Assembly (NCBI GenBank): GCA_000091205.1
Contig: AP006498.2
Length of the DNA: 64,000 nucleotides
Strand: one strand, 5' to 3'
Source of the DNA: Cyanidioschyzon merolae
Lineage: Eukaryota
Positions 9,491 to 64,000 of the stretch are shown piece by piece (position 1 is the first letter of the stretch; every line of letters begins with the position of its first letter). Both the position numbers and the translations under genes were made by a program. The notes under the pieces were generated by a model. It was not told the DNA's origin, did not search any database, and saw only the letters and a list, made by a program, of their open reading frames with translations.

Positions 9491-10246
9491 CTAAGCTTCG
9501 GCGTGTGCACCTGTTTTGGAGGCCCAGCGACTTGCTCCATACGCTACTACGGGCCTTTGACGCTTGCACTCCTTCAAGGCGCTCAACTGACTGAAAAGAA
9601 TGTTGAATGTGCGCTGCTTCCCACAGTACAGGTTCATACGCTGGAAAGCCCACCGGGGCTTGGTATATTCTCTCCAGAGCGCCTCCCAATGAGCAACGCG
9701 AACTTTCATGAACTCCCGAAAAGCTCGATAGCCCGCTCCGCGGCACGTCATCTCGCTGGTCGCTTCCAGGTGATCCTTCACTCGTGCATTCCATGTCTGA
9801 ATTTTCTTCCTTGCACTCATGATGCCGGATTCTCGGTAGTATCTCGCCCTCGAGAGCTTGAAAAGACGAATGTCTTTATGAGGCAAATTACCGTCAGTAC
9901 CATCTTCCGCTCGCTTGGGTGCTGCGATGGCTATATGATTCGTGTTTCCAGGGTCTGTGCCAACGACAAAGCCGTTATCCTCCACCTCCTGCGTCACAGG
10001 ATCCTCCTCCTTCTCATCTTCATGGTTCGTCACGGGCGCAGCCGAGGGCGGAACTGGACGATCTGTCTTCAAGCGCCGATAGTGTACATACATGGTTACT
10101 CCATCGGTCTCAATCATCCCAGTGAATAACTTTTGCTTGCTCGTATTGAGACGTTTGAAATCGAAAATATTCTTCCAGTACGTCTCCCGGTTTTCGCCGG
10201 AGGATTCCTCCCTGCTAACATCGAACTCCGAACTGATCTCCTTCAT
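9491..10246 (-). pseudogene. Truncated TnpB/Fanzor-like nuclease ORF (RuvC-I only) of copy A
   Basis: The 251-aa ORF aligns to the N-terminal half of the copy B protein ([22 protein letters not shown]; [24 protein letters not shown] RuvC-I; [28 protein letters not shown]). It contains only one unit of the 25-aa repeat. It terminates after VVAYGASRW and lacks the zinc finger and RuvC-III. Confidence 0.7.
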
Positions 10247-12140
10247 GATGCACTAGAAGACCTTGGAGTCGATAGTCACAAAACGTGACTTGATGTTGCA
10301 CAACGGAACGACGTTGAAGCGCGTCCCCCATTAGGAAAGCCTTCCGTTTCTCCGAATCTTCGTTTTTTGTCCCACTAAGCTTCATCTCTGCCTTGCCTTC
10401 GAGTTCTCGATCCAAAAACACGAAATACCTCAATATGAGGAGGTAGTATCTTTCCTTATCTTTTTCAACTCTGATACCTTTTCTGCTGGATTCGCCAGCT
10501 CCAGTACCGTACGATGCTCTTGCATGACCGCACGGATTACAGAAGCTTCATTCGTGCTCTCGTTTGACGCCTTCTTGTCTACAAATTGGATCTCATCTTC
10601 ACGCTTGTGATCTTTCGTGATGCCATTGATTATCGCCCATATTCCTTTGCGAGAGGCACCCGGGTAGAGCGCAAACACGGCGCCTATCATGAAACGTTCG
10701 AGGTTCACGATCATATGTTTCTTCAGGTTCGTGAGGTACTTCATGGCCCCGTAGGTAAACATACCCCAGTATCCCATGTATCGAGTGCCGTTGAAGTGGT
10801 ATTCGGAGTGATTTTCGTGGAAGGCATGCACTAGCTCATTTTCCCTCCGCGCTTCCCCTTTACTAAGCATCAGGTGCCGAAGAATGGTCTTGTCGAAAAA
10901 ATCGCCCGGAACCTCGACTGTTTCCATGTCCGTCACGTCGAGATACATCTCCCTCGACATATGCATTAGCCCTGACGAAGCCTTTATAATACTCATGGAG
11001 TACGACTTAACACGGTTTCTAGTTGCCTCCCGTAACTTCTCCACCCACGCATTCTTGATATGTTTAAGAAGACAGGCTTTCACCACCGTCACGTAGGACT
11101 CTTGTTTTTCGTGCAGCTTCTGACGTGGGCTCTCCCTCTTCTGCGTCTTTGTCTTTTCCTGTTACTCTCCGCCGGGCACTGTTTTTCGTTTTTTTTCTGG
11201 CAGCCGGCGACACCTGCCTTCCAGGATCCTCCACTTGCTTTTCCAGAAATTTCCTTTTTTCGGAAAAGAACGCGCTTTGAACGCTTCTGTTATTAACTGC
11301 GAAAAATCAACCGAATACACTCATTAGAGCGTTGAAACACGACTGAGATGAAGTAATATATTTCGCTACGATTCCAATGCAAATACACGTTTTACGTTAA
11401 AACAACAAGTCAACGAATGGTCAGGATTGCGTTTCCCTTCAACGGCGAGATGCGCGTCGTACCTCATGCCTGCCGGTAATGGAGGTGCGCATCTCGACCG
11501 CACTATATGCAGCAAAGAACAGAGACTAGCTACTGACTAGCAATGAGATGACAATTTCATTCCCACTCTACAGTAAACGTTAAAAGGGCAAATGTTGCCA
11601 GATCGTCGAAAGCTTACCTTCCAGGCGAAAGGTCCAGCGAGCCGGACGAGTCTCCGGGGGTTCGTGCTTCATGGCTTCCCCTTCGCCACCCCAGTGCCAG
11701 GTGCTTTAGTGATATCTGACCAACTCATCCCCGAAGCGGTTTATTCCGGCATTAAGGGTGCTCAGGCAGCGTCTGGGCGTCGCCCGGCTTGCAGTTATCT
11801 CCTAGTATATCGCTTCGCGCTGCCGCAAACCGTATGTCTATCTGTACAAATTGCAGGCTCCCAGAAAGACAATTAGCCCCGATTCCGTATCACGTGTAGT
11901 ATTCCCCGAGCCGACGCCCCCGGTAGTGTGGTAAATATGTTCTGTTTCCGTGATACATCTGAACCATCGGTAGAGGGGCTATTCCGGGTGCTCACGGCCG
12001 GCAAGCGGCGCATGAGAGAACGAATGAAACGACCAGAACGTTCGAAAGCATGTATAAGTAATGGAACTTGGAGGTAGGGTGCAGCATGGCGGACGCTTCC
12101 CCGATTGCCAATTCCCATCTCGCAATCCGGGATCCATAGT
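9500..12140 (-). mobile_element. Fanzor/TnpB-like element, copy A: older, 3'-truncated and degenerate
   Basis: Nucleotide and protein homology to copies B and C. The TnpB-like ORF stops after RuvC-I and lacks the RuvC-II-to-RuvC-III part. Homology to copy B begins near 9510 (aligning to B at about 49230). It then continues to about 11783, with a roughly 220-bp insertion in A, and from 12008 to 12140. The 5' module (about 10960-11783) is about 97-99% identical to copy B, whereas the coding body is about 75-80% identical. Confidence 0.75.
10430..11092 (-). pseudogene. ORF-A homolog of copy A (upstream module of the Fanzor-like gene)
   Basis: The 220-aa ORF has a nearly identical N-terminal 45 aa and about 65-70% identity thereafter to ORF-A of copy B. 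The junction with the downstream nuclease frame carries an A5 run instead of A7. Confidence 0.6.
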
Positions 12141-35879: not shown

Positions 35880-36480
35880 TGTCCTATTTCCGTATAGAAA
35901 GAACCGAGTGAGTCCTATAAGCCTTGCGTTCCAGTGGCAAACCTGCTATCTCCAGTCACGAACGCTCTCTATCGACCAGAGCATGACTCCAACTTGCCTC
36001 GCGCTACAGTTGCAAAACTGCTTTCTCCAATTTTAAACGCTTTCTACACTGAAAGGACCGAGTGAGTCCTATAAGCCTTGCGTTCCAGTGGCAAACCTGC
36101 TATCTCCAGTCACGAACGCTCTCTATCGACCAGAGCATGACTCTAACTTGCCTCGCGTTTCAGTGGCAAACCTGCTATCTCCAGTCACGAACGCTCTCTA
36201 TCGACCAGAGCATGACTCCAACTTGCCTCGCGCTACAGTTGCAAAACTGCTTTCTCCAATTTTAAACGCTTTCTACACTGAAAGGACCGAGTGAGTCCTA
36301 TAAGCCTTGCGTTCCAGTGGCAAACCTGCTATCTCCAGTCACGAACGCTCTCTATCGACCACAGCATGTCTCCAACTTGCCTCGCGTTTCAGTGGCAAAC
36401 CTGCTATCTCCAGTCACGAACGCTCTCTATCGACCAGAGCATGACTCCAACTTGCCTCGCGTTTCAGTTGCAACAAGGCT
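35880..36480. repeat. Satellite array: about 229-bp higher-order unit (two 75-bp subunits plus a 79-bp variant), about 2.5 copies
   Basis: ttccagtggcaaacctgctatctccagtcacgaacgctctctatcgaccagagcatgactccaacttgcctcgcg recurs at about 35929, 36082, 36157, 36312 and 36387. The array sits directly upstream of SUV3. Confidence 0.85.
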
Positions 36481-36633
36481 GGTGGCGCGCTTTCCCCGGT
36501 AGCAACGGTGCATCCCGTTCGATCAAAACAACTGTGCTAGTCGGCGCTTTCGCGCTCGTGCAGTGGGCTCGTCTACGCACTGGACACTTCTCTGGTGCCA
36601 AATTTAGAATGCTCGACTAGTACCGGTCGGCTC

Positions 36634-39165
36634 ATGTCCGTGATCACGAGGCGCCCTTGCTTCATGCCTGCGGCTGCGTTGCGCAGTCAGCAACAGACGT
36701 TCGCGCTCGTCCAGAGTGGCTTCACCTGCCGACTTCAACTCCGGTACAGCTCGCAGGGGGCGTTTTTGCCGAGTGAGCGACCTTGGCGTCGAAGGCAGGT
36801 TCTAGAACTTATTCGTCAAGTGCAGCAGGGCGAGCGCTACCGGGAGCGCCTTCGTCGAGAGTGCCAACTGCCGCTCGGACTCTGGGACCTGGTGGCACAG
36901 CGCATCAGCGGCTGGAAGCTCAAACGCTTGCGTCGTTGGCTTCGTGGCGCCGAAAACCTTCTTTTGACGCACAAGCAGCTGCCTCTAAAGGGACAGGAAA
37001 CTCTCTCCGAAGGTGCCGAGCTCAGCTGTGCTGCCCATGCACCCCAAGAGCTAGTATTTCGTGCAATGCTAGCCTATTGTCGGCAGCGCTATGGTGAAGA
37101 ACTGGGTTCGCTCGCTCGGCTTGCAGTGTGTGCAGACTTAAGCTTGCCAGCGACTTGGTTTCCCCTCGCCCGCGCCCGCAAGAGAAAGGTGATTTATCAT
37201 GCAGGGAAAACCAACAGCGGGAAGACTCATCAGGCATTGCAGCGCTTTCTGAACGCCGAGTCGGGTGTGTACTGCGGACCTCTTCGGCTGCTCGCCTGGG
37301 AAGTCTACGATCGACTGAACAAGCAGGGCATTGCCTGCATCCTGCGAACTGGTCAGGAGTTCGCCATGCCGCCAGGCTCGCCTTCAACAGCAAATGTGAA
37401 AGATGCAGCGATGATGCCTGGGTCAGTGTCGGGCGCCCTGAATCATGCCTTGAGCCCGAAAACCGATGATCACGAAGAGGAAGACGAGGATGAAGACGAA
37501 GAGGAATCGAACGCGTCTGCCGCTTTCGATGATGAGCGCATTCATCTAGGACGCCATGCGCACAGCGGCCTAGCCAGAGGCGTTGCGCTCGATCAGTCAG
37601 TGACTGATCCACTTGACTTTCCAAAACAGGTACGTTTCGTGTCCTGTACTGTAGAGATGGCTGATCTCTATCGTCCCGTGCAAGTCGCCATAGTTGATGA
37701 AGTGCAGATGATTGCTGAGCGGGAGCGTGGTGGTGCATGGACGCGAGCGATCCTCGGTTTGCCGGCGGATGAGCTCCACCTCTGCGGATGTCCCAGTGCA
37801 GTTGACGTCGTACGCGCTATGATCGAGGAAGACTGCCACGAGCAACTAGAGGTGCGCACCTACGAGCGTCTAGGTCCGTTACGTGTCTCAGAGAAGGCAC
37901 TGGGCGAGACCCAGCGCCAGTGGAGCCGTGGCGTGCGTGCCGGGGACTGTTTCGTTACGTTTTCCAGACGCGAACTCTTCCGCATCAAACACCAGTTGGA
38001 ACGAAATGCTATCAAACCTCTACAGTGCGCTGTCATCTACGGCTCACTGCCACCGGAAACACGTCGTGAACAGGCGCAGCTCTTTAATGAGGCGGATACC
38101 CACTCGATTCTGGTGGCGACGGACGCAGTCGGCATGGGCCTGAACCTCAATATTCGGCGCATGATCTTCTCCGCTTTGGACAAGTTCGACGGGACTCAGC
38201 GTCGACCGCTAACGACCGCAGAAATTCTTCAAATTGCGGGCCGAGCCGGCCGCTATGCCGGGCCTGACCGGCGGCCCCAGTGCGGTGAGGTCACCGCGTT
38301 TCGCCAGGACGACCTCAGACGTCTTCGAAGCATTCTGCATGGTGCCGGTATCGATACGCACGGCTGGCCTGCCTCGATTGTACCGGAAAAAGTCACAAAA
38401 GCGGGCCTCAGTCCGACTCGAGAGATGATGGAGGCGTTTGCCGCTCGCTGTACTGCAGAGCTTGCTTCGCGCTCGGCGTCTGGCGATGACCTGATGCGGC
38501 GAGCTGCCACGAAGCGACCGCCACTCAGTGAGCTCTACGAAAAATTTGAAAACCTGGCCCAAGTGGACGCTTCCGGGCGATACTTCGTGTGCGACCTCAC
38601 CGACGTCAAGCGAATCTGCCGTCTCCTGGAGCGTGCCCGGGTTGACGAATGGATGACCTTTGATCTACTGTACAGTGCGTCTATGGCTCCGCTCAAGCTC
38701 GACGATGCTGCGGCCTGCGAGGCCATGGTCCAGTTTATGCGAGCATTCACCACAAGCGGCGTGGTGCGTCTCACTCTCCAGCAGTGCGGCTCCAGGATGG
38801 CGTTGCGTTGGTTGAGTGGGGCGCCCCAGTGGAGCTCCGGGCCTCGCACGGTTTCTGAACTCAGGGAGCTCGAGTCGCTCTACCACGTCCTCGATCTATA
38901 TAATTGGTTTGCGAATCGATACACTGACGCATTCGTGGACCGAGATCGTGCCTCTGAATTGCGCCAGCGATGTGCAGAGGCAGTTGCTCGTGGTCTCGCG
39001 AACCTCTCCCAAAGTGCCATCGAAGACGAGCATGACGACATGCAGGCCGACACCCTCTCACAGAGACGTCCGCGGCGAACTCGCTACCGTCTTCGTCTGG
39101 ATGAAAATGAACGTCTGCAGTATGTATCCTATCTGCGGAAGCACCAACCGCTATATCTGCGATGA
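36634..39165 (+). CDS. SUV3: ATP-dependent RNA helicase SUV3 (mitochondrial degradosome helicase)
   Basis: Walker A: VIYHAGKTNSGKTHQALQRF. GPLRLLAWEVYDRLNKQGIACILRTGQE. The DEVQ box, helicase C-terminal motifs (VATDAVGMGLNLNIRRMIF; QIAGRAGR) and a SUV3 C-terminal domain are present, plus an acidic insertion. The ORF track starts at 36595; the first ATG is at about 36634. Confidence 0.85.
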   Translation: MSVITRRPCFMPAAALRSQQQTFALVQSGFTCRLQLRYSSQGAFLPSERPWRRRQVLELIRQVQQGERYRERLRRECQLPLGLWDLVAQRISGWKLKRLRRWLRGAENLLLTHKQLPLKGQETLSEGAELSCAAHAPQELVFRAMLAYCRQRYGEELGSLARLAVCADLSLPATWFPLARARKRKVIYHAGKTNSGKTHQALQRFLNAESGVYCGPLRLLAWEVYDRLNKQGIACILRTGQEFAMPPGSPSTANVKDAAMMPGSVSGALNHALSPKTDDHEEEDEDEDEEESNASAAFDDERIHLGRHAHSGLARGVALDQSVTDPLDFPKQVRFVSCTVEMADLYRPVQVAIVDEVQMIAERERGGAWTRAILGLPADELHLCGCPSAVDVVRAMIEEDCHEQLEVRTYERLGPLRVSEKALGETQRQWSRGVRAGDCFVTFSRRELFRIKHQLERNAIKPLQCAVIYGSLPPETRREQAQLFNEADTHSILVATDAVGMGLNLNIRRMIFSALDKFDGTQRRPLTTAEILQIAGRAGRYAGPDRRPQCGEVTAFRQDDLRRLRSILHGAGIDTHGWPASIVPEKVTKAGLSPTREMMEAFAARCTAELASRSASGDDLMRRAATKRPPLSELYEKFENLAQVDASGRYFVCDLTDVKRICRLLERARVDEWMTFDLLYSASMAPLKLDDAAACEAMVQFMRAFTTSGVVRLTLQQCGSRMALRWLSGAPQWSSGPRTVSELRELESLYHVLDLYNWFANRYTDAFVDRDRASELRQRCAEAVARGLANLSQSAIEDEHDDMQADTLSQRRPRRTRYRLRLDENERLQYVSYLRKHQPLYLR

Positions 39166-42597: not shown

Positions 42598-44097
42598 TCA
42601 ATCACCATCGAATGTGGTCACATGACTCGCGGTCGGTGCTCGACGCGCTGTACTGGAAAATATGCCACCAAATGTTCTCTTTTCCTGCTTACGATGAACT
42701 TCGATCAGTCGCTGTAATTGCTCGAGCTCTTTCTTTGCGATTGTATGTTTCGGTTCAAGACGCAATACCTGTAGTAGGTCACGTTTGGCGTCCTCGTAAT
42801 TCCCTAGCTCGCGCTGAGCCTGGCCACGTGTAAACAGCGCTTTGCCCACGAGCGAACAGTGCGCGCTCTCGCCGGCTGCAGCTGCCCCTTCAGCTGCTGG
42901 GGCAACTCTGTCTTCTTCTCGTTTGTCGGACTTGCCGTGTTGCGCGGACTCGAGCACCAGGTCTGCTAGGCGTATCGCATCGTGGTACGCGCCCAGCCGA
43001 TAATGCGTCCGAGCCAAGTTACTCAACAGCGTGCGCGTCAGTTGTTCCCGTTGCGTCTGAATGGACAGGTCTCCAGTATCATCAGCCTCATTCGTCTTTG
43101 AGGAACCGCTCTGATTCGATGGCGCTTTCCCCCAGAGCTGCAAAGTCTGAAGCGCTACCTCATACTCTTGTACGGCTGCCTCCAGCTGGCCTCCTTTGAA
43201 ATAGTAGTTCCCGAGCTCCTTTGCCTCCAGGGCGTACGCCAGCCGATCCGCATCCGTCTCAAGGTCTGCAAAAGCACGCGTCTTCCGGAATCGTAACAGT
43301 GGAGGTGCGGTGACGCTCTGTGTGCCTGCTGTGCTGCCTGTCGGAGGGCTTGTCGTGCCGTCTCCGCAGCTTGCACTGCTTCCATTGGCCTCGGTCTCTA
43401 GTGCGCCCGATGACAATGATTGGGGTGCATTGGGGGCATCGCCGCCTTGGCATGCGCCGTCGAGGGCTTTCGCCTCAGGTCGCCAGGGCAAAGACGTAAC
43501 CCCGTTGAGCGCAAGGAGCTGCGGCCGGCCGTCAACGATTCGCACCGTGCCCAAGAAGTGAATCTCTAACTCAATGCTCGCACAGTTCGGTTTCACCACC
43601 CAGCGTCCACCACGGCCTTTGCGACCGCGATCGCCGTAGGCATATTTTGGCGCACGGCAGCATACAAGAGCTTTTTCTCCGACCCGCATCGTAAATAACG
43701 CCAGCTCTACCACCGGGATCACCTGGTGTCGGCCGAGCACGAACGTGAACGGTGCAACTGCGTCAGCTACGTCGCTGTCGCAAACGTCGAAAAGTATACG
43801 ACCCTGCGAGTCGGGCTCTCCTTTCAGGTCGGTATCACTTGCTGCAACATAGGCGCGGTAGTGAATAGCGACACGTTCGCCAATGGCTGGCGGCGGAAGC
43901 AGTGCAACAGGTGCTGCAGGTTCCTCGGGGGCCGCGTCGCAGCCGCTGCCTGTTTGGCTCGGTGCCGTCGTCGCGGGCTCGAGAACAACTTTATAGACTT
44001 GTCCGTATACTGCATGACCAGGAGGCAGCAACTCAACTTTCGTGCCTTTCGAGGCCACGGAACTCATATCGAGCACGCCGTCAAACTGATCGCTCAC
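42598..44097 (-). CDS. FKBP-type peptidyl-prolyl isomerase domain + TPR-repeat protein (FKBP8/FKBP42-like)
   Basis: FKBP-like segment: ILFDVCDSDVADAVAPFTFVLGRHQVIPVVELALFTMRVGEKALVCCRAPKYAYGDRG. C-terminal TPR-like repeats: AYALEAKELGNYYFKGGQLEAAVQEYEVAL, ARTHYRLGAYHDAIRLADLVL, GKALFTRGQAQRELGNYEDAKRDL. The ORF track start is GTG; the first ATG is about 10 codons in. Confidence 0.55.
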   Translation of the reverse strand: MSDQFDGVLDMSSVASKGTKVELLPPGHAVYGQVYKVVLEPATTAPSQTGSGCDAAPEEPAAPVALLPPPAIGERVAIHYRAYVAASDTDLKGEPDSQGRILFDVCDSDVADAVAPFTFVLGRHQVIPVVELALFTMRVGEKALVCCRAPKYAYGDRGRKGRGGRWVVKPNCASIELEIHFLGTVRIVDGRPQLLALNGVTSLPWRPEAKALDGACQGGDAPNAPQSLSSGALETEANGSSASCGDGTTSPPTGSTAGTQSVTAPPLLRFRKTRAFADLETDADRLAYALEAKELGNYYFKGGQLEAAVQEYEVALQTLQLWGKAPSNQSGSSKTNEADDTGDLSIQTQREQLTRTLLSNLARTHYRLGAYHDAIRLADLVLESAQHGKSDKREEDRVAPAAEGAAAAGESAHCSLVGKALFTRGQAQRELGNYEDAKRDLLQVLRLEPKHTIAKKELEQLQRLIEVHRKQEKRTFGGIFSSTARRAPTASHVTTFDGD

Positions 44098-44368: not shown

Positions 44369-44795
44369 CCGCCGCGCAGAGGTGCACCTATGCCCTGGCA
44401 AGGCGTGGGAATGTCTGTACTAGCATGTCGCTAAATTTTGTGCCGCGCAGAGGTGCTCCTATGCCCTGGCAAGGCGTGGGAATGTATGTACAAGCATGTC
44501 GCTAAATTTTGTGCCGCGCAGAGGTGCTCCTATGCCCTGGCAAAGCGTGGGAATGTCTGTACAAGCATGTCGCTAAATTTTGTGCCGCGCAGAGGTGCTC
44601 CTATGCCCTGGCAAGGCGTGGGAATGTCTGTACAAGCATGTCGCTAAATTTTGTGCCGCGCAGAGGTGCTCCTATGCCCTGGCAAGGCGTGGGAAGTCTG
44701 TACAAGCATGTCGCTAAATTTTGTGCCGCGCAGAGGTGCTCCTATGCCCTGGCAAGGCGTGGGAATGTCTGTACAAGCATGTCGCTAAATTTTGT
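44369..44795. repeat. 71-bp tandem repeat, about 6 copies
   Basis: The unit gccgcgcagaggtgctcctatgccctggcaaggcgtgggaatgtctgtacaagcatgtcgctaaattttgt recurs with a 71-bp period (starts near 44369, 44440, 44511, 44582, 44653, 44723). It is preceded by an (ACACGA/CCAACA)-like microsatellite at 44220-44260. Confidence 0.9.
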
Positions 44796-48690: not shown

Positions 48691-48873
48691 GAAGCTTTGC
48701 CGCGAAAAACGCCAGCGGCGTACAGTAGTGGCAGCGACCGCGCCTTAGACAAATCGTTCTCAGCTGACGTGCAGACGCCTCCCAGCCTTTCTCGACCGGC
48801 CACCTACTACTGCTTCCAACTTCTTCTCATATAGTTCGACTTTGAGGGGTTGTCCAACAAAGTTCTCTCTTGT

Positions 48874-50274
48874 CTATTCTGGAGATCTGTTCTCCAGCAC
48901 CGCACATCTCCGTATATTGCTAGGGGCATGAAAGTCACGATTCACACACTCCATACGGTTCTTGCCATCATTGGTTGTACTTACTAACGCAGGCAATCCT
49001 CGAACGTTCGCCCTCCTTTCCATTTGCTCCTCTGTTAGCGGTCCGTACTTTGCGATTTCCTCAGGGCACCGCTGGCACTTGTCTATCTCGACCGTCTGAA
49101 GTGTACAACCCAGCTCGTGGTGTGTATAGGACGTTCGGAACTCATCTACAGGTATCGTGACGAGACGCCTTCCACACTCCTTGTACGTTCTTGTTGTTGG
49201 AGCTGGTATGCACCCCTTTTGGGTCTTCCATCGCCCTGCTCCATACGCTACGACGAGCCTTTGACTCTGGTCCCCGTTGAGCGCACGCAACTGATTGAAA
49301 AAGTTGGCAAACGCCCGCTGCCTCCCACAGTGTAGATTCATACGCAGACGGGCCCACCGAGGCTTTGTATATTCCTTCCACAGCGCATCCCAATGGGCAA
49401 CACGAACTTCCATGAATTTCCGAAAAGCTCGAAAGTCCGCTCCTCGGCTCGTCACCTCGCTCATAGCTTCCAGGTGCTCTTTCATTCCTGAATTCCACGT
49501 TTCGATTTTCTTCGTCGCATTTATGACACCGGATTCTCGATAGAATCTCGCTCTCGAGAACGTCAACAGACGGATGTCTTTCTGACGTAAGTTGCCGTAA
49601 GTACCATCTTCCGCCCGCTTCGGTGCTGCGATGGTTATGGTATTTGTGCTTCCGGGGTCCGTGCCAACGACAAAGTCGATATCCTGCACTTTCTGCTTCT
49701 CAGAACCCGCCTTCTTGTTCTCTTCATTCTTTACCGCGCCAACGACAAGGTCGTTATGCTCCACCTCCTGCATCGCAGGATCCGCCGTCTTCTTATCTTC
49801 ATCCTTCGTCACGTCAACGACAAGGTCGTTATCCTCCACCTCCTGAATCGCACGTTCCTCCTCTTTGTTTTCTTCATCCCTCGTCACGGGCGAAGTCAAA
49901 GGCGGAACTGGCCGATCTGTCTTCAACCGCCGATCGTGTACACAAAAGGCTACCCCATCGGTTTCGATCTTCCCAGTGAATACATTTTGCTTGCTCACTT
50001 TGGGACGCTTGGAATCGGAGATACGCTTCCAGTGGGTCTCCCGGTTTTCGCCGGTGAAATCCTTCCTGCTAACACTGAACTTCGGTCCGATCTCCCTCAT
50101 GATGCCGTAAAGGACGCCGGAGTCGATACTCACGAAGTATGACTTGATATTGGACAATGGAACCACGCCGGAGCGCTTCCCCACTAGGACAGCCTTCCGT
50201 CTCTCCCACTCTTCATTTGTCTCTTCACTCAGCTTCATCTCCGCCTTGCGTTCGAGCTCTCGGTCCAGAAACAC
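48874..50274 (-). CDS. TnpB/Fanzor-like RuvC-fold nuclease homolog (OMEGA-type RNA-guided endonuclease family)
   Basis: RuvC-I: [20 protein letters not shown] (D at about residue 206). Zinc-finger region: [13 protein letters not shown]...EIDKCQRC...MEC. RuvC-III: [15 protein letters not shown] (compare TnpB DRDxNAAxNIxxxG). The canonical RuvC-II glutamate is replaced ([11 protein letters not shown]). A 2-unit 25-aa acidic repeat sits just N-terminal to RuvC-I. The ORF track start is GTG; the first in-frame ATG is at codon 13. Confidence 0.75.
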
Positions 50275-50308
50275 AAAGTACCGTAGGACGAGGCGATAGT
50301 ATCGTTCC

Positions 50309-50947
50309 TTATCTTTTTTTCAACTCTGATATCTTTTCTGTTTGATTCGCCAACCCCAGTACCGCACGGTGCTCTTGTACAGTCGCCCGGATCACAGAAG
50401 CTTCATTCGCGCTCTCGTTTGACGCCTTCTTCTCGACAAATTCGACCTCATCTTCATGCTGTCGATCTTTCGTGATGCCATTGATAGTCGCCCATTTTCC
50501 TTTGCGAGAGATGCCCGGGCGGAGTGCAACCGCGGCGCGGATCACGAAACGTTCGAGGTTCGTTGTCAAACGGCTCGTCAGGTTCGTGAGGTACTTCATC
50601 GCCCCGTGGTCGTAAATATCCGCGCCACCCCTGTATCGGGTACGCTCGAAGCGGAATGCCGCGAAGTTTTCGTGGAGGGCATGCACTAGCACATTTTCCC
50701 TCCACGTTCCTGCTGTACAAAGCATCAGGTAGAGAAAAATCGTCTTGTCGAAAACCTCGTCCGGAATCTCGACCGATTCCATGTGCGTCACGTCGAGATA
50801 CATCTCCCTCGCCAGATGCATCAGTCCTGACGAAGCCTTTATAATACTCATGGAGTACGACTCAACACGGTTTCTAGTTGCCTCCCGTAACTTCTCCACC
50901 CACGCATTCTTGATATGTTTAAGAAGACAGGCTTTCACCACCGTCAC
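50309..50947 (-). CDS. ORF-A: probable N-terminal extension/exon of the Fanzor-like protein, separated by a +1 frame break at an A7 run
   Basis: The 212-codon ORF ends ...ISELKKR-stop at an AAAAAAA run. With A6 the frame would read ...[28 protein letters not shown]... directly into the nuclease ORF. The frame is also open upstream of its GTG start-type codon. A 77-codon KR-rich ORF (50944-51177) lies in another frame across the poly-T runs. Confidence 0.55.
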   Translation of the reverse strand: MTVVKACLLKHIKNAWVEKLREATRNRVESYSMSIIKASSGLMHLAREMYLDVTHMESVEIPDEVFDKTIFLYLMLCTAGTWRENVLVHALHENFAAFRFERTRYRGGADIYDHGAMKYLTNLTSRLTTNLERFVIRAAVALRPGISRKGKWATINGITKDRQHEDEVEFVEKKASNESANEASVIRATVQEHRAVLGLANQTEKISELKKR

Positions 50948-51919
50948 GTAGGACTCTTGTTTTTCGTGCAGCTTCTGACGTGGGCTCTCCCTCTTCTGCG
51001 TCTTTGTCTTTTCCTGTTACTCTCCGCCGGGCACTGTTTTTTGTTTTTTTTTCTGGCAGCCGGCGACACCTGCCTTCCAGGATCCTCCACTTGCTTTTCC
51101 AGAAATTTCCTTTTTTTCGAAAAAGAACGCGCTTTGAACGCTTCTGTTATAAACTGCGAAGAATCAACCGAATACACTCATTTGAGCGTTGAAACACGAC
51201 TGAGATGAAGTAATATATTTCGCTACGATTCCAATGCAAATACATGTTTTACGTTAAAACAACAAGTCAACGAATGGTCAGGATCGCGTTTCCCTTCAAC
51301 GGCGAGATGCGCGTCGTACCTCATGCCTGCCGGTTATGGAGGTGCGCATCTCGACCGCACTATATGCAGCAAAGAACAGGACTAGCTACTGACTAGCAAT
51401 GAGATGACCATTTCTTTCCCACTCTACAGTAAACGTTAAAAGGGCAAATGTTGCCATATCGTCGGAAGCTTACCTTCCAGGCGAAAGGTCCAGCGAGCCG
51501 GACGAGTCTCCGGGGGTTCGTGCTTCATGGCTTCCCCTTCGCCACCCCAGTGCCAGGTGCTTTAGTGATATCTGACCAACTCATCCCCGAAGCGGTTTAT
51601 TCCGGCATTAAGGGTGCTCAGGCAGCGTCTGGGCGTCGCCCTGGTCGCAGCGCATTCGGTGGTACGCCTACGCTGTTCTGTCCCTGTGCAGCATCCGCTC
51701 CAGCGGTACAAGCGCTGCGGCGGGTGCTCACCGCAGGCTCGGCGCACGAAAGAACGCACAAATCGACCAATCTAGCGGAAAGGGAGTCTAAGTAATGGAA
51801 CCTGGAGGCAGGGTGCACCATGATGGGCGCTTTCCCGAAAGCCGATATCCATCCCGCAATCCGTGATCCACGGTCAACGAATAGGTTTTCTCAGACCAGA
51901 AAAAGAACAAGACACGACG

Positions 51920-56379: not shown

Positions 56380-56990
56380 CGGCACCAGCAACTCGAGAAC
56401 GATGGGTTTCTCTCTCTACGGTAAGTGCTGAAAGGGGGAAGAGGTTTTCCGTATTTTCGAAACTTTATCCTATAGATGGAAAAGCAGCAACTCGAGAACG
56501 ATGGGTTTCCATCTCCACGGTAAGCGCTGAAAGGGGAAGAGGTATTCCGTATTTTCGAAACTCTACCCCATAGATGGAAAAGCAGCAACTCGAGAGCGTT
56601 TGCTTTCCCTCTCTACGGTAAGTGCTGAAAGGGGGAAGAGGTTTTCCGTATTTTCGAAACTTTATCCTATAGATGGAAAAGCAGCAACTCGAGAACGATG
56701 GGTTTCCATCTCCACGGTAAGCGCTGAAAGGGGGAAGAGGTATTCCGTATTTTCGAAACTCTACCCCATAGATGGAAAAGCAGCAACTCGAGAGCGTTTG
56801 CTTTCCCTCTCTACGGTAAGCGCTGAAAGGGGGAAGAGGTATTCCGTATTTTCGAAACTCTACCCCATAGATGGAAAACCAGCAACTCGAGAACGATGGG
56901 TTTCCATCTCCACGGTAAGCGCTGAAAGGGGGAAGAGGTTTTCCGTATTTTCGAAACTTTACCCTATAGATGGCAGATCTCGCGTGCTCG
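56380..56990. repeat. About 100-bp tandem repeat, about 6 copies
   Basis: The unit aactcgagaacgatgggtttccatctccacggtaagcgctgaaagggggaagaggtattccgtattttcgaaactctaccccatagatggaaaagcagc recurs near 56388, 56489, 56586, 56686, 56787 and 56885. It lies in the MgtE upstream region and generates long spurious ORFs on both strands. Confidence 0.9.
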
Positions 56991-58391
56991 ACGTGTCTAC
57001 CGGGCTTGTGCTCCGTGCGACTCTGCAGTGGCGGGTGCTCTTGCGCGACCTGAGTAGCATACCCGCTCCTAGGCCCAGAATAAAGTGCGTTGGGGACGAG
57101 TGGCTGTGCTGTTGCCACTGCACTCGCCAGGGCAGAGACGCGCGGACCTACAACACCGGAGCATTGTCGGCCTTGCGGGACCTTTCGTACAGAAGCTAGG
57201 TTTGCGACTGTAAGGAAACCTTCACCACTTTTCAGCTCTTACGGTGGAGTGGGAACGAAGTCATGCAAAGTAGTTTGTTCGTGTTTCATTTCTGTTCTAT
57301 TACCCTAATAGTTGATGTCCAGTGAAACGGAACGCATGCCCGGGTTGCGCTGCCGGCGCGGCAATTGTTGATACAATAACATCGATGAATCGAACCAGAA
57401 CGCTTGGGATGCGTACGTTCGTGCTGTACGCAATCAGGAAAGTGACCAGCATTCCCTAGAGACGTCCATGCGCCCCGGAAGCTGCAGCCCGTTTCCCAGC
57501 CTGCACCGGGAGTTTGACTGAGCGAACGACCCTGCAATTGCCGAGCCTACCGCAAGCGCTTGCTGTGGCGTTGCAGGCGCCCAACTAGTCGCCTTGTGGA
57601 GACAAAAAGCGTCTGCGTCGTATCCCAGCGGGAATCTCATCGAGGCTCAGGGCCATGCCCGCCTGGCACACGCCCCTTCGTTGTCCGTGCGAATTTCGGG
57701 CCGCATGGAGGTCGTGCTGCGGCGCGAACTCGCGGCATCGTCGTATCTGCTCGCTGAAGAGCGACCGCCTGCGGTCGCTGCTTCCTCCGCATACCGTGCA
57801 ACTGCATTCTTTCTGCCAACGGGGGTGACGTGCGCCAGTTCGGCATCGCCCGCGTGCTGCAAATTTGAAACCGTCACCGGCAAAGGATTTCTGTCCGCCT
57901 AAGTAGCTTCTCTAGGCACAGGCGTCTCCATCGGGAGCTGGGTACACGTGCTGGGTTCCGGATGAGGGTGCATACCCAGTCTCGCCACAATGCCCGCTCG
58001 CTGGACGTATCCGCGTGACGCTGTGTGCCTCGTTTGCCTCCAGGCCGGGTTTCTGGTAGTTGAGGACACCGCGCAGCCTGCTCATATGCAAGCCAGCCGA
58101 TCCTGCGTGCATTTTCGTGATCGAGTGCTCGCGTGCGTGCTATCAGTAGCCCGTCTGCGTGCCATCCGATTCCACGAGGAATCTTCAGAACAAATGCGCG
58201 CACCTACAGCATCAGTGGCAACGAGTAAGCACGAGTACCGCAGACCTCGAGTGCAGACTGCTGTATGCCTTGCATGCAGCGCGTCGCGCTGTCGACGCTG
58301 CGGCAGGGCGCCTTGTGCGCAAATCGGCTGCGACGTCTGTACTCGCGTCGAGACGCCTTTCCAGTAGGCAGCGTTCGGGAAAACTGCAGCC

Positions 58392-61212: not shown

Positions 61213-61793
61213 TCCTTTGACGCGATTCTTCTCGATATAATTGAAGCGTTGTCCAGTAACCTGAAAGATCGGGCGCTGCCAGAAAACTCGTCCGCAACAA
61301 GGCACGAAATGCACGCCCTGTCGAAGCGCAACAGCACACCGGTACAGTGTTAGCGGCCTTTCACCGCAGAAACTCGCACTGATGGTGCTTTACGGAAGCT
61401 TCTCTTCGTCGCGCCTTGAGCTCTGTTCCCGGTCGAAGCGAGGCTCCCCGGGTCTGCAAAGCTCTAATAAAGCCACGTGGGCAAAGAGTCGTGCACTGCA
61501 GCAGCTGCAGCACGAACCAGATATGCTGCACCCGTTCAGAGCAAGTGCAGTGCCTCGTCTCTACTGCCGATAACGGATCCGGAGACCGACGACGGTAGAG
61601 AAACCAAACGCCTTCACAGAGTCGAACGATGCCGACTGTGTACAGTAGTGGCGGTGAACGCGCCCTAGACTTAAAGTCGCCAATTGACGTGCAGACGCCT
61701 CCCAGCCTTTCTCGACCGGCCACCTACTACTGCTTCCAACTTCTTCTCATATAGTTCGACTTTGAGAGGTTGTCCAACAAAGTTCTCTCTTGT

Positions 61794-63419
61794 CTATTCT
61801 GGAGATCTGTTCTCCAGCACCGCACATCTCCGTATATTGCTAGGGGCATGAAAGTCACGATTCACAAACTCCATACGGTTCTTGCCATCATTGGTTGTAC
61901 TTACTAACGCAGGCAATCCTCGAACGTTCGCCCTCCTTTCCATTTGCTCCTCTGTTAGCGGTCCGTACTTTGCGATTTCCTCAGGGCACCGCTGGCACTT
62001 TTCCATCTCGACCGTCTGAAGTGTACAACCCAGCTCGTGGTGTGTATAGGACGTTCGGAACTCATCTACAGATATCGTGACGAGACGCCTTCCACACTCC
62101 TTGTACGTTCGTGTTGTTGGAGCTGGTATGCACCCCTTTTGGGTCTTCCATCGCCCTGCTCCATACGCTACGACGAGCCTTTGAGTCTGGTCCCCGTTGA
62201 GCGCACGCAACTGATTGAAAAAGTTGGCAAACGCCCGCTGCCTCCCACAGTGTAGATTCATACGCAGACGGGCCCACCGAGGCTTTGTATATTCCTTCCA
62301 CAGCGCATCCCAATGGGCAACACGAACTTCCATGAATTTCCGAAAAGCTCGAAAGTCCGCTCCTCGGCTCGTCACCTCGCTCATAGCTTCCAGGTGCTCT
62401 TTCATTCCTGAATTCCACGTTTCGATTTTCTTCGTCGCATTTATGACACCGGATTCTCGATAGAATCTCGCTCTCGAGAACGTCAACAGACGGATGTCTT
62501 TCTGACGTAAGTTGCCGTAAGTACCATCTTCCGCCCGCTTCGGTGCTGCGATGGTTATGGTATTTGTGCTTCCGGGGTCCGTGCCAACGACAAAGTCGAT
62601 ATCCTGCACTTTCTGCTTCTCAGAACCCGCCTTCTTGTTCTCTTCATTCTTTACCGCGCCAACGACAAGGTCGTTATGCTCCACCTCCTGCATCGCAGGA
62701 TCCGCCGCCTTCTTATCTTCATCCTTCGTCACGTCAACGACAAGGTCGTTATGCTCCACCTCCTGCATCGCAGGATCCGCCTTCTTCTCATTTTCATCCT
62801 TCGTTACGCCAACGACAAGGTCGTTATGCTCCACCTCCTGCATCGCAGGATCCGCCGCCTTCTTATCTTCATCCTTCGTTACGCCAACGACAAGGTCGTT
62901 ATGCTCCACCTCCTGCATCGCAGGATCCGCCGTCTTCTTATCTTCATCCTTCGTCACGTCAACGACAAGGTCGTTATCCTCCACCTCCTGAATCGCACGT
63001 TCCTCCTCTTTGTTTTCTTCATCCCTCGTCACGGGCGAAGTCAAAGGCGGAACTGGCCGATCTGTCTTCAACCGCCGATCGTGTACACAAAAGGCTACCC
63101 CATCGGTTTCGATCTTCCCAGTGAATACATTTTGCTTGCTCACTTTGGGACGCTTGGAATCGGAGATACGCTTCCAGTGGGTCTCCCGGTTTTCGCCGGT
63201 GAAATCCTTCCTGCTAACACTGAACTTCGGTCCGATCTCCCTCATGATGCCGTAAAGGACGCCGGAGTCGATACTCACGAAGTATGACTTGATATTGGAC
63301 AATGGAACCACGCCGGAGCGCTTCCCCACTAGGACAGCCTTCCGTCTCTCCCACTCTTCATTTGTCTCTTCACTCAGCTTCATCTCCGCCTTGCGTTCGA
63401 GCTCTCGGTCCAGAAACAC
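61794..63419 (-). CDS. TnpB/Fanzor-like RuvC-fold nuclease homolog, copy C (541 aa; repeat-expanded)
   Basis: Same motifs as copy B ([13 protein letters not shown]; [13 protein letters not shown]). It differs by five 25-aa [25 protein letters not shown] repeats and a few substitutions, including Cys-to-Phe in the zinc-finger region (MEC to MEF). Confidence 0.75.
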
Positions 63420-63453
63420 AAAGTACCGTAGGACGAGGCGATAGTATCGTTCC

Positions 63454-63996
63454 TTATCTTTTTTTCAACTCTGATATCTTTTCTGTTTGATTCGCCAACC
63501 CCAGTACCGCACGGTACTCTTGTACAGCCGCACGGATCACAGAAGCTTCATTCGCGCTCTCGTTTGACGCCTTCTTCTCGACAAATTCGGCCTCATCTTC
63601 ATGCTGTCGATCTTTCGTGATGCCATTGATAGTCGCCCATTTTCCTTTGCGAGAGATGCCCGGGCGGAGTGCAACCGCGGCGCGGATCACGAAACGTTCG
63701 AGGTTCGTTGTCAAACGGCTCGTCAGGTTCGTGAGGTACTTCATCGCCCCATAGTCGTAAATATCCGCGCCACCCCTGTATCGGGTACCCTCGAAGCGGA
63801 ATGCCGCGAAGTTTTCGTGGAGGGCATGCACTAGCACATTTTCCCTCCACGTTCCTGCTGTACAAAGCATCAGGTAGAGAAAAATCGTCTTGTCGAAAAC
63901 CTCGTCCGGAATCTCGACCGATTCCATGTGCGTCACGTCGAGATACATCTCCCTCGCCAGATGCATCAGTCCTGACGATGCCTTTATAATACTCAT
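63454..63996 (-). CDS. ORF-A of copy C (partial; truncated by window end)
   Basis: 180 aa, about 97% identical to copy B ORF-A. The same A7 run lies at the junction with the nuclease frame. Confidence 0.55.
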   Translation of the reverse strand: MSIIKASSGLMHLAREMYLDVTHMESVEIPDEVFDKTIFLYLMLCTAGTWRENVLVHALHENFAAFRFEGTRYRGGADIYDYGAMKYLTNLTSRLTTNLERFVIRAAVALRPGISRKGKWATINGITKDRQHEDEAEFVEKKASNESANEASVIRAAVQEYRAVLGLANQTEKISELKKR

Positions 63997-64000
63997 GGAG

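What the first reader, a model, noticed from the sequence alone, without database searches (positions are those of the whole stretch)
49705..49854. Copy-number-variable 75-bp coding tandem repeat inside the nuclease gene (1, 2 and 5 units in copies A, B and C)
A 25-aa acidic/lysine unit ([25 protein letters not shown]) sits immediately N-terminal to RuvC-I. It is present once in old copy A, twice in copy B (49705-49854) and five times in copy C (about 62624-62999). Copies B and C are otherwise about 99% identical. This is a very recent in-frame minisatellite expansion within a nuclease-fold protein. It could be a disordered linker modulating WED/REC-RuvC geometry or a tolerated slippage hotspot. 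On the opposite strand it produces a long proline-rich pseudo-ORF ([16 protein letters not shown])n, which should not be annotated.
Basis: seen in the sequence. Interest (0 to 1): 0.5.

Follow-up and report, generated by a model that had tools for sequence, protein, structure and literature searches.

The report
Variable 75-bp repeat in dead Fanzor1 copies
A 75-bp (25-amino-acid) repeat sits in a floppy acidic loop of a transposon-borne Fanzor1 nuclease gene of the red alga Cyanidioschyzon merolae and varies from 1 to 7 units between copies, but it evolves without protein-level constraint and the copies seen here are broken genes, so it is a real yet ordinary minisatellite.

Summary
TRF finds period-75 arrays at 49663-49888 (3.0 units) and 62583-63033 (6.0 units). 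Counted consistently, copies A, B and C have 1, 3 and 6 units, not 1, 2 and 5. Outside the array, B and C are 99.3% identical.

The gene, on the minus strand, is a Fanzor1 nuclease of the known CMe-1A transposon family of Cyanidioschyzon merolae. The family profile hits solved Fanzor1 structures (E down to 9e-21), and Foldseek puts Fanzor1 on top.

The array lies in the WED-to-RuvC loop and ends one residue before the catalytic DPG aspartate. It is the only low-confidence stretch of the AF2 model. Its dN/dS is 1.11, against 0.25-0.43 in the flanks. Distant homologs lack it. Across 80 related loci the unit number runs from 1 to 7, and 3 of 22 orthologous loci differ in unit number between strains.

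All three window copies are pseudogenes. Copy C looks like an older resident element overwritten by B-type sequence through ectopic gene conversion, and its extra units derive from B's middle unit.

Verdict: a tolerated slippage or recombination hotspot in a disordered linker, not a functional tuning device. The antisense proline-rich ORFs are artefacts.

The parts
49663..49887 (-). Copy B array: 3 units of 75 bp. In gene order these are u0 at 49887-49813, u1 at 49812-49738 and u2 at 49737-49663. A 12-nt leader (LTSP) precedes the array at 49899-49888. One Thr codon and then the DPG motif (D codon 49659-49657) follow it.
   Evidence: TRF; ORF translation; anchor spacing of 240 bp; unit sequences.
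62583..63032 (-). Copy C array: 6 units of 75 bp. Units u0, u1 and u5 are 75/75 identical to B's u0, u1 and u2. Units u2, u3 and u4 are derivatives of u1 at 73, 70 and 74 of 75.
   Evidence: TRF; ORF translation; anchor spacing of 465 bp; unit matrix.
9959..10033 (-). Copy A: a single unit (VTNHEDEKEEDPVTQEVEDNGFVVG) followed by T-DPG. Coordinates are approximate to within a few bases.
   Evidence: Anchor spacing of 90 bp; translation.
48765..51870 (-). Copy B of the CMe-1A Fanzor1 element, about 3.1 kb. It is read as two ORFs, 50309..50947 and 48874..50274, because of a +1 frameshift in an A7 run at about 50311-50317. There is an in-frame stop at 48874-48876, and the ancestral stop lies at about 48760-48762. 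The 5' limit is approximate.
   Evidence: Self-BLAST; frameshift and stop; end of B/C similarity; orthologs L040 and L042.
61640..64000 (-). Copy C of the same element, cut off by the end of the window. It shares the A7 frameshift (about 63456-63462) and the in-frame stop (61794-61796) with B. The B-like sequence ends at about 61690-61700. The last 45-60 nt of the element are identical to the alternative allele L017 instead.
9491..11794 (-). Copy A, an old decayed copy. It is 78-88% identical to B, has an A5 frameshift and 5 in-frame stops, and lacks RuvC-II and RuvC-III (truncated after about residue 632 of the P0002 reference).
62543..63287 (+). Antisense artefact ORFs across the array of copy C: 62543..63124 (193 aa), 62551..62991 (146 aa) and 62676..63287 (203 aa). 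Copy B has the equivalents at 49623..49979 and 49756..50142.
   Evidence: the ORF listing. The sense strand of the array is purine-rich (A 0.29, G 0.37), so antisense stop codons are rare.

Best explanation
The feature is a coding minisatellite: a 75-bp, 25-aa, strongly acidic unit. It lies in the loop that joins the WED domain to the first RuvC strand of a Fanzor1 nuclease. The nuclease is encoded by the CMe-1A transposon family of Cyanidioschyzon merolae.

The unit arose by tandem duplication of the linker together with the start of RuvC strand beta-1. Every unit ends in ...NDLVV(D/G), and only the last one continues into x-DPG.

Because 75 is a multiple of 3 and the loop is disordered and solvent-exposed, gains and losses of units by replication slippage or out-of-register recombination are tolerated. 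They accumulate essentially neutrally. Unit number ranges from 1 to 7 between family members and differs between strains at the same locus.

In this window all three copies are already pseudogenes, so the 3-versus-6 difference has no protein consequence. Copy C is most likely an older resident element at the cytochrome c1 locus that was overwritten by B-type sequence through ectopic gene conversion. Its three extra units are re-copies of B's middle unit, made during or soon after that event.

Shown here: the array, the unit counts, Fanzor1 identity, predicted disorder, the lack of codon-level constraint, family-wide and between-strain length variation, pseudogene status, and the conversion-type boundary.

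Inferred: the slippage or SDSA mechanism, the direction of change (3 to 6), and the coupling of the expansion to the conversion event.
For: Array and counts.

Fanzor1 identity. A 62-sequence family profile hits PpFz1 9cf0 (E=9.1e-21), SpuFz1 8gkh (2.4e-11) and GtFz1 9cer (6.3e-7). An AF2 model of the intact homolog P0002 (pLDDT 82.4, pTM 0.80) has Fanzor1 structures as its top 7 Foldseek PDB hits (E from 6e-17 to 3e-14, target-normalised TM up to 0.72). The family's invariant D, E and D align with SpuFz1 D383, E541 and D606.

Host and family. Cytochrome c1 is 100% identical to C. merolae 10D. CMe-1A was described by Bao & Jurka 2013 (PMC3627910).

Disorder. The only long stretch of the model with pLDDT below 50 is residues 384-470, which is the array. 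The last ~10 residues of the final unit form strand E479-485.

No protein-level constraint. Pooled over 274 copy pairs, dN/dS is 1.11 for the array, 0.43 upstream and 0.25 in the RuvC core. Divergence by codon position is 0.18/0.17/0.18 in the array and 0.15/0.12/0.27 in the core.

Family variation. Anchor spacing is 15+75n or 3+75n bp with n=1-7 in 80 loci. Homologs at 33-42% identity have only a short non-repetitive linker.

True length polymorphism. In 3 of 22 orthologous-locus groups the unit number differs (5 vs 3, 7 vs 3, 3 vs 2), while about 10 kb of the locus aligns at 97-99.4%.

Expansion after gene death. In L016 the unit that carries an in-frame stop is present three times.

Pseudogene status of the window copies.

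Direction of change. The locus-B orthologs L040 and L042 have n=3.

Gene conversion. The flanks of winC and L017 are 99.3-99.5% identical, but the element is only 82-83% identical, ungapped, with transitions about equal to transversions. winC switches from B-like to L017-identical in the last 45-60 nt. winB versus L042 shows patches of 67-89% identity in a 97-100% background.
Against: The young 6-unit allele itself was not found in any independent assembly or protein collection.

Both alleles at locus C have 6 units, although only about 5-7% of family loci do. Simple copying from a 3-unit donor does not predict this.

Unit u3 differs from u1 at 5 of 75 sites. That is more than the 0.7% B-C divergence predicts for a very recent duplicate.

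Array divergence between copies (about 0.18) is lower than the third-position divergence of the core (0.27). Every one of the 156 distinct units is net acidic or neutral (mean net charge -5.1, range -11 to 0). Some constraint on composition, or homogenisation by conversion, therefore cannot be excluded.

Only one lineage with an intact ORF was sampled (n=4), so the functional range of unit number is not directly observed.
Confidence: 0.75

Rival explanations
1. Functional tuning. The acidic repeat is a selected, length-tunable module in the WED-RuvC loop. It might act as a nucleic-acid mimic or autoinhibitory tail, or as a spacer that sets WED/REC-RuvC geometry. Unit number would then be adaptive.
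For: The array sits in the loop that contacts the TAM/heteroduplex junction in solved Fz1 structures. SpuFz1 Y345 in that loop starts R-loop formation. All 156 distinct units are net acidic or neutral, with mean charge -5.1. Several unit positions (Q15, V17, V24) are 91-98% conserved even in internal units. Overall array divergence is lower than the core's third-position divergence. The paralogs L013 and L017 share an old 6-unit array, so elements that transposed carried long arrays.
Against: The array has dN/dS 1.11 and flat divergence by codon position. Unit number runs from 1 to 7 with no preferred value. Homologs at 33-42% identity have no repeat. The AF2 model gives no confident structure for it. 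Length changes are seen in copies that were already dead. The residue equivalent to the R-loop wedge maps to the conserved KKDRPVPP segment upstream of the array, not inside it.
Confidence: 0.1
2. Assembly artefact. The 6-unit array of copy C is an over-expansion, or the 3-unit array of copy B is a collapse, produced by the assembler.
For: No independent assembly of the same allele was found, and the exact proteins are absent from the 15-billion-protein collection. The window's exact source and sequencing technology are unknown.
Against: Units u2, u3 and u4 each carry their own substitutions, so they are not identical stutter copies. The array is only 450 bp long. The n=3 state of copy B is reproduced in two independent metagenome assemblies. 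Arrays of 5 to 7 units are assembled in other loci and samples, and orthologous contigs from different samples agree in 19 of 22 groups.
Confidence: 0.05
3. Contraction or inheritance rather than expansion. The B-type progenitor already had 6 near-identical units. Either copy B lost three, or copy C was copied from an unsampled 6-unit B-type donor.
For: The coincidence of n=6 in both locus-C alleles is not explained by simple expansion. Unit u3 is more diverged (5 of 75) than a very recent duplicate should be. C. merolae holds about 150 CMe-1A copies, and only three lie in this window.
Against: Locus B has 3 units in the window and in two other strains. winC shares with winB the u0 variant ([10 protein letters not shown]) that L040 and L042 lack. 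The copying from B to C is therefore later than the strain split, at which time B already had 3 units. No closer donor for u2-u4 exists among 80 loci.
Confidence: 0.1

Closest known systems
CMe-1A, the Fanzor1-encoding transposable element of Cyanidioschyzon merolae (Bao & Jurka 2013, Mob DNA 4:12; PMC3627910)
   Same: The host is the same, since cytochrome c1 is 100% identical to strain 10D. The element is about 3 kb long with a single long Fanzor1 ORF. There are many old copies at about 80% identity to the consensus, and no TIRs or TSDs are evident. The window copies and the more than 371 metagenome relatives fit this description.
   Different: The paper does not mention a tandem repeat in the ORF: the word 'tandem' occurs 0 times in its text. 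I did not align the window copies to the published consensus, so identity with CMe-1A rests on host, size, copy number and Fanzor1 class.
Fanzor1 RNA-guided nucleases with solved structures: SpuFz1 (8GKH, 9CEU-9CEZ), PpFz1 (9CF0-9CF3) and GtFz1 (9CER-9CET)
   Same: The domain order, the fold and the aligned D/E/D catalytic triad are shared. The WED beta-sheet (ETDG...C.H) is followed by a loop and then the DPG strand of RuvC-I.
   Different: In the solved proteins the WED-RuvC loop is about 40-45 non-repetitive residues. Here it carries 1 to 7 copies of a 25-aa acidic unit, which is up to about 175 extra residues. Sequence identity to the solved proteins is only 13-16%.
Coding minisatellites (VNTRs) in disordered protein linkers in general, and expansion or contraction of tandem repeats during double-strand-break repair by gene conversion (Paques, Leung & Haber 1998, cited from my own knowledge, not checked here)
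   Same: The unit length is a multiple of 3. Alleles at one locus differ in length. Internal units are more alike than the edge units. The setting shows ectopic conversion among copies.
   Different: The host gene is a transposon nuclease, and most copies are pseudogenes. The variation is therefore mostly between paralogous dead copies rather than between alleles of a functioning gene.

Membership tests
Fanzor1 (eukaryotic TnpB-like RNA-guided nuclease) | Significant sequence-profile similarity to experimentally characterised Fanzor1 proteins | tested here: met
   Profile A2 against PDB sequences gives 9cf0 PpFz1 E=9.1e-21, 8gkh SpuFz1 E=2.4e-11 and 9cer GtFz1 E=6.3e-7. A single-sequence phmmer search and Pfam gave nothing. 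The precomputed Pfam label for relatives is PF26935 (DUF8286).
Fanzor1 (eukaryotic TnpB-like RNA-guided nuclease) | Bilobed WED/REC + RuvC/TNB fold | tested here: met
   The AF2 model of the intact homolog P0002 has pLDDT 82.4 and pTM 0.80. Its top 7 Foldseek PDB hits are all Fanzor1 (E from 6e-17 to 3e-14, TMt 0.48-0.72). Cas12 and TnpB follow only at E of 3e-3 or weaker.
Fanzor1 (eukaryotic TnpB-like RNA-guided nuclease) | RuvC catalytic triad D...E...D at aligned positions | tested here: met
   P0002 D484 and E656 are invariant and D725 nearly invariant in the 62-sequence family alignment. They align with SpuFz1 D383, E541 and D606. Window copies B and C keep D, E and D, but the near-invariant N727 and A729 next to the third residue are changed ([10 protein letters not shown]).
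Fanzor1 (eukaryotic TnpB-like RNA-guided nuclease) | Encoded inside a eukaryotic transposable element present in many copies | tested here: met
   There are 3 copies in the window and more than 371 relatives in metagenome contigs of closely related strains. The host is C. merolae, and the CMe-1A family has about 150 copies.
Fanzor1 (eukaryotic TnpB-like RNA-guided nuclease) | omega-RNA encoded at the 3' end of the element, with the guide reading into the flank | not tested
   The ancestral ORF runs to within a few bases of where B/C similarity ends (about 48760-48765). That layout is expected, but no RNA structure or covariation analysis was done. Rfam gave no hit in the window.
Fanzor1 (eukaryotic TnpB-like RNA-guided nuclease) | RNA-guided DNA cleavage activity | not testable with these tools
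   This needs biochemistry. The window copies are frameshifted and prematurely terminated, so they are not expected to be active.
Minisatellite / VNTR (coding) | Head-to-tail tandem units of 10-100 bp, far beyond chance | tested here: met
   TRF gives period 75, scores 247 and 636, and 80-88% matches.
Minisatellite / VNTR (coding) | Unit number differs between alleles of the same locus | tested here: met
   The pairs L038/L039 (5 vs 3), L016/L018 (7 vs 3) and L053/L063 (3 vs 2) align over about 10 kb at 97-99.4% and differ only in the array. For the window loci themselves, locus B has n=3 in all three strains. Locus C has 6 units in both alleles, but the arrays are unrelated in sequence.
Minisatellite / VNTR (coding) | The reading frame is kept through length changes | tested here: met
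   All 80 or more anchor spacings are multiples of 3. This follows automatically from a 75-bp unit and is not in itself evidence of selection.

The most novel reading that the evidence does not exclude
The acidic 25-aa repeat may be a functional, evolvable module of this Fanzor1 lineage. It would be a nucleic-acid-mimicking tail, variable in length, placed in the WED-RuvC loop that starts R-loop formation. It could throttle or gate DNA binding. Its instability, together with the pervasive ectopic conversion among copies, would then reflect nuclease-induced breaks repaired from other family members, a form of homing or copy correction in a eukaryote that recombines efficiently.
Probability: 0.07. 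Interest if true: 0.65.

Novelty: new member of a known kind. Interest (0 to 1): 0.3.

Why it matters
The practical value is modest. The data show that the WED-to-RuvC loop of a Fanzor1 has carried from about 25 to about 175 extra disordered residues in different family members. That marks a candidate insertion-tolerant site for engineering Fanzor editors, for example with tags or fused domains. I note that only the 4-unit form was seen with an intact ORF.

The data also warn annotators about two things. The CMe-1A copies here are split or pseudogenised ORFs, and the purine-rich array creates long spurious antisense ORFs in all three frames.

The population comparison gives a small, clean example of minisatellite length polymorphism and of ectopic gene conversion between dispersed transposon copies in C. 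merolae, an organism used for gene targeting by homologous recombination. None of this changes the current understanding of Fanzor biology.

Tried and rejected
1. Direct annotation failed. Pfam, and single-sequence phmmer against PDB sequences, found nothing for the window ORFs or close homologs. Only a profile built from distant relatives connected the family to Fanzor1.

2. RIP-like hypermutation was considered, because the element at locus C is 17% diverged while its flanks are 99.5% identical and many copies carry stops without indels. I rejected it: transitions about equal transversions (82 vs 83), the changes are symmetric, and there is no AT enrichment.

3. Programmed frameshifting or transcriptional slippage at the poly-A tract was considered, because copy A (A5) and copies B/C (A7) are shifted at the same tract. 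I rejected it. The intact lineage has no A-run there (KKEKERYY), most copies have A6 in frame, and A7 is confined to the B-type lineage plus L061.

4. My first estimate of B/C identity, 97%, was wrong. It came from out-of-register alignment of the arrays and from including the degenerating 3' terminus. A global alignment gives 99.3%.

5. I looked for traces of the old recipient array inside copy C's new units. The result was inconclusive: 3 of 8 variant sites match, and all three are family-consensus states.

6. Exact-sequence look-ups of the copy B and copy C proteins (M-, V- and ATG-start versions) and of Hsp70 found nothing. The young 6-unit allele therefore has no independent confirmation.

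7. The extra allele L082 shows only the last ~170 nt of the element next to cytochrome c1. It may be a deletion allele or a chimeric contig, and this is unresolved.

8. I looked for young paralog pairs to show that active masters had different unit numbers. Apart from winB/winC, every pair at 90% or more identity is probably the same locus re-sampled on a short contig. L013/L017 (94% identical, different flanks, both n=6) is the only clear case of an array transposed at a given length.
Full report
OBSERVATION

Tandem Repeats Finder reports period-75 arrays at 49663-49888 (3.0 copies, 80% matches, score 247) and 62583-63033 (6.0 copies, 88% matches, score 636). Both lie in minus-strand ORFs: 48874..50274 (466 aa, copy B) and 61794..63419 (541 aa, copy C). 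The two ORFs differ by exactly 75 aa. I read the arrays in the phase that ends directly before the conserved x-DPG motif.

- Copy C has six units: [25 protein letters not shown] / [25 protein letters not shown] / [25 protein letters not shown] / [25 protein letters not shown] / [25 protein letters not shown] / [25 protein letters not shown].
- Copy B has the first, second and last of these.
- The old copy A (ORF 9491..10246) has one unit.

The distance between the conserved anchors (...DRPVPP and DPG...) is 90, 240 and 465 bp, which fits 15+75n with n = 1, 3 and 6.

A global alignment of B and C outside the array shows 15 substitutions over about 2.1 kb, or 99.3% identity. My first BLAST figure of 97% was an artefact of out-of-register array alignment.

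The plus-strand proline-rich ORF 62543..63124 exists. All three plus-strand frames are in fact open across the array. The sense strand is purine-rich, which makes antisense stop codons rare.

WHAT THE GENE IS

Pfam and single-sequence searches of PDB sequences were silent. The precomputed label for relatives is DUF8286. A full HMMER scan of 1.84 billion representatives with the intact homolog P0002 (752 aa) found 1232 relatives.

A profile of 62 of them matches the sequences of solved Fanzor1 structures: Parasitella PpFz1 (E=9.1e-21), Spizellomyces SpuFz1 (2.4e-11) and Guillardia GtFz1 (6.3e-7). An AlphaFold2 model of P0002 built on that alignment is confident (pLDDT 82.4, pTM 0.80). Its seven best Foldseek hits in the PDB are all Fanzor1 (E from 6e-17 to 3e-14, target-normalised TM up to 0.72), far ahead of Cas12 and TnpB.

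The family's invariant Asp of DPG, the Glu of VDEFRT and the Asp of NRD align with SpuFz1 D383, E541 and D606. The structure papers name these as the catalytic residues.

The host is Cyanidioschyzon merolae or a very close relative. The neighbouring cytochrome c1 is 100% identical to the strain 10D protein and 92% identical to Cyanidiococcus. Bao & Jurka (2013) already listed one Fanzor1 family in this alga, CMe-1A: about 150 copies, about 80% identical to the consensus, about 3 kb, without TIRs or recognisable TSDs. The window copies fit that description. Their paper does not mention a tandem repeat.

WHERE THE REPEAT SITS

The array lies between the last WED strands (FTG.IETDGVA.C.H.RRLK.DRPVPP) and RuvC strand beta-1. 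The final unit's ...DFVVG runs straight into x-DPG. In the model it forms strand 479-485. Each unit therefore contains a copy of the start of beta-1, which suggests that the original duplication spanned the linker/RuvC boundary.

The array (residues 384-470 of P0002) is the only long segment of the model with pLDDT below 50.

In the solved Fz1 structures the WED-RuvC loop touches the junction of the TAM duplex and the heteroduplex. One loop residue (Y345 in SpuFz1) stacks on the last TAM base. By the profile alignment that residue corresponds to the conserved KKDRPVPP segment just upstream of the array, not to the array itself. This last step is an inference from the alignment.

Relatives at 33-42% identity have a short, non-repetitive, often charged linker at this place and no 25-aa repeat. 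The repeat is therefore specific to this algal family.

IS IT CONSTRAINED?

I fetched 80 related loci from metagenome contigs and measured the anchor spacing. All values fall on 15+75n, or 3+75n in a 12-bp deletion variant, with n from 1 to 7. Values of 2 to 4 are the most common.

I compared copy pairs with equal n in register, pooled over 274 pairs. Nei-Gojobori dN/dS is 1.11 for the array, 0.43 for the 300 nt upstream and 0.25 for the 780 nt of RuvC core downstream. Divergence per codon position is flat in the array (0.18/0.17/0.18). The core shows the usual third-position excess (0.15/0.12/0.27). No purifying selection on the peptide sequence is detectable.

Two observations keep a weak form of constraint open.
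- Array divergence is lower than the core's third-position divergence.
- All 156 distinct units are net acidic or neutral (mean -5.1, range -11 to 0).
Homogenisation by gene conversion, constraint on composition, or low-complexity saturation could each explain this. I did not resolve which.

IS IT REALLY LENGTH-VARIABLE AT A LOCUS?

I grouped loci by flanking sequence and obtained 22 groups in which the same insertion was sampled in different metagenomes. In 19 groups n is the same. In 3 groups it differs: L038/L039 (5 vs 3), L016/L018 (7 vs 3) and L053/L063 (3 vs 2). Whole-locus alignments show that these pairs are collinear over about 10 kb at 97-99.4% identity and differ essentially only in the array.

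In L016 the unit that carries an in-frame stop codon occurs three times. That expansion therefore took place in an already dead copy. The intact lineage (the P0002 cluster) has the same four units in every member examined.

STATE OF THE WINDOW COPIES

Intact homologs read straight through from the upstream ORF into the nuclease ORF (...[21 protein letters not shown]...).
- Copies B and C have an A7 run where A6 is needed, giving a +1 frameshift. Copy A has A5.
- B and C share an in-frame stop where homologs have W, S or L (RSPE*TRENFVGQPLKVELYEKK...).
- B and C also have [10 protein letters not shown] in place of the near-invariant NRDFNAAINI.
- Copy A has five in-frame stops and lacks RuvC-II and RuvC-III.

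Of the 80 related loci, only the P0002 lineage (L002 and L081) is free of stops and frameshifts. The A7 state is also present in the Illumina-based orthologs L040 and L042, so it is not a sequencing error of the window.

HISTORY OF COPIES B AND C

L040 and L042 are orthologs of locus B. Their flanks, which include Hsp70, are 99.7% identical to the window, and both have n=3.

L017 is the ortholog of locus C. Its flanks, which include cytochrome c1, are 99.3-99.5% identical to the window. The element inside is only 82-83% identical, ungapped, with transitions about equal to transversions. This rules out RIP-like mutation. L017 also has six units, but they are old and mutually diverged (56-65 of 75 identical). 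They are shared with a paralog at another locus, L013, which is 94% identical.

In the five-way alignment of the element's 3' end, winC follows winB up to ...GGCGTCTGCACGTCA. It then becomes identical to L017, and different from winB, for the last 45-60 nt of the element. I read this as the boundary of a gene-conversion tract: a resident, older family member at locus C was overwritten by B-type sequence in the window lineage.

Two further observations agree with this.
- winB versus L042 shows short patches of 67-89% identity in a 97-100% background, and one patch covers array unit u0.
- winB and winC share the u0 variant that L040 and L042 lack. This dates the copying from B to C to after the strain split.

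Within the array, C's u0, u1 and u5 are 75/75 identical to B's three units. Units u2, u3 and u4 are closest to B's u1 (73, 70 and 74 of 75). No better donor exists among 80 loci.

The simplest reading is that B's middle unit was re-copied three times during or after the conversion. Out-of-register copying during break repair is a known source of tandem-repeat expansion; I cite that from my own knowledge and did not test it here.

Two points remain unexplained. Both locus-C alleles have six units. Unit u3 carries five substitutions.

VERDICT

The tandem repeat and its copy-number difference are real. The unit counts need correcting to 1, 3 and 6. The nuclease is a Fanzor1 of the already catalogued CMe-1A family.

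The repeat is a family-specific, disordered, acidic insertion in the WED-RuvC loop. It behaves as a neutral minisatellite.

The most useful by-products are three. The loop is marked as a candidate insertion-tolerant site in Fanzor1. There is evidence for ectopic gene conversion among dispersed copies. Annotators are warned about the split ORFs and the antisense ORFs.

I put interest at 0.3.

Noticed in passing
window 61640-64000 versus L017:4156-6566 and L013: Two strains whose flanks are 99.3-99.5% identical carry different CMe-1A subfamily members (82-83% identical, ungapped) at exactly the same site next to cytochrome c1. The window allele switches from copy-B-like to L017-identical in the last 45-60 nt of the element, which looks like the boundary of an ectopic gene-conversion tract.
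   Followed up: partly
window 48765-51405 versus L042 and L040: The orthologous copies at locus B are a mosaic. Patches of 67-89% identity lie at about 51106-50806, 50206-50106 and 49906-49806 in a 97-100% background. This suggests repeated short-tract conversion from other family members.
   Followed up: partly
window 50311-50317, 63456-63462 and about 10440-10450 (minus strand): The same poly-A tract is frameshifted in opposite directions in different copies. B and C have A7, A has A5, and most family members have A6 in frame. This is a homopolymer mutation hotspot. The intact lineage has no A-run at this place.
   Followed up: yes
L082 (ENA ERZ27249350 k141_59765), positions 3540-3870: A third version of locus C has only the last ~170 nt of a B-type-like element next to cytochrome c1, preceded by unrelated sequence and a UVB_sens_prot gene. 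It is either a deletion allele or a chimeric metagenome contig. At the position of the premature stop shared by B and C it has a Leu codon.
   Followed up: partly
window 48760-48900 and 61680-61820 (minus strand): The ancestral Fanzor ORF runs to within a few bases of the element's 3' end. That is the layout expected if the omega-RNA scaffold overlaps the end of the ORF. No RNA structure or covariation test was run, and Rfam has no hit in the window.
   Followed up: no
window 44371-44795: A tandem array of 6.0 copies of a 71-bp unit at 97% identity lies between ORF 42598..44097 and the Hsp70 gene. 71 is not a multiple of 3, so it is probably non-coding. Origin unknown.
   Followed up: no
window 56386-56973: A tandem array with period 99/198 bp (5.9 or 3.0 copies, 90-96% matches) is open in both strands, with ORFs 56465..57118 (minus) and 56600..57199 (plus) encoding periodic peptides. 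I did not test whether either is a real gene.
   Followed up: no
window 35921-36473: Another array has period 75 bp (nested 154/229 bp; 7.3 copies at 76%, or 2.4 copies at 97%). It lies just upstream of the 856-aa ORF 36595..39165. Its unit sequence differs from the Fanzor repeat, and the shared period is probably a coincidence.
   Followed up: no
window 46427-48412 (minus strand): An intronless cytosolic Hsp70 (661 aa, GGMPGAGG repeats, C-terminal EEVD) lies about 350 bp downstream of copy B. Its exact sequence is absent from the protein collection even though cytochrome c1 is 100% identical to C. merolae 10D. The window may therefore come from a strain or assembly other than the annotated 10D reference.
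   Followed up: partly
P0001 (JGI contig of 5081 nt): The best database hit to copy B is B-like through the N-terminal half and the first two units, but it resembles a different subfamily from the third unit onwards. This is another probable conversion mosaic.
   Followed up: no
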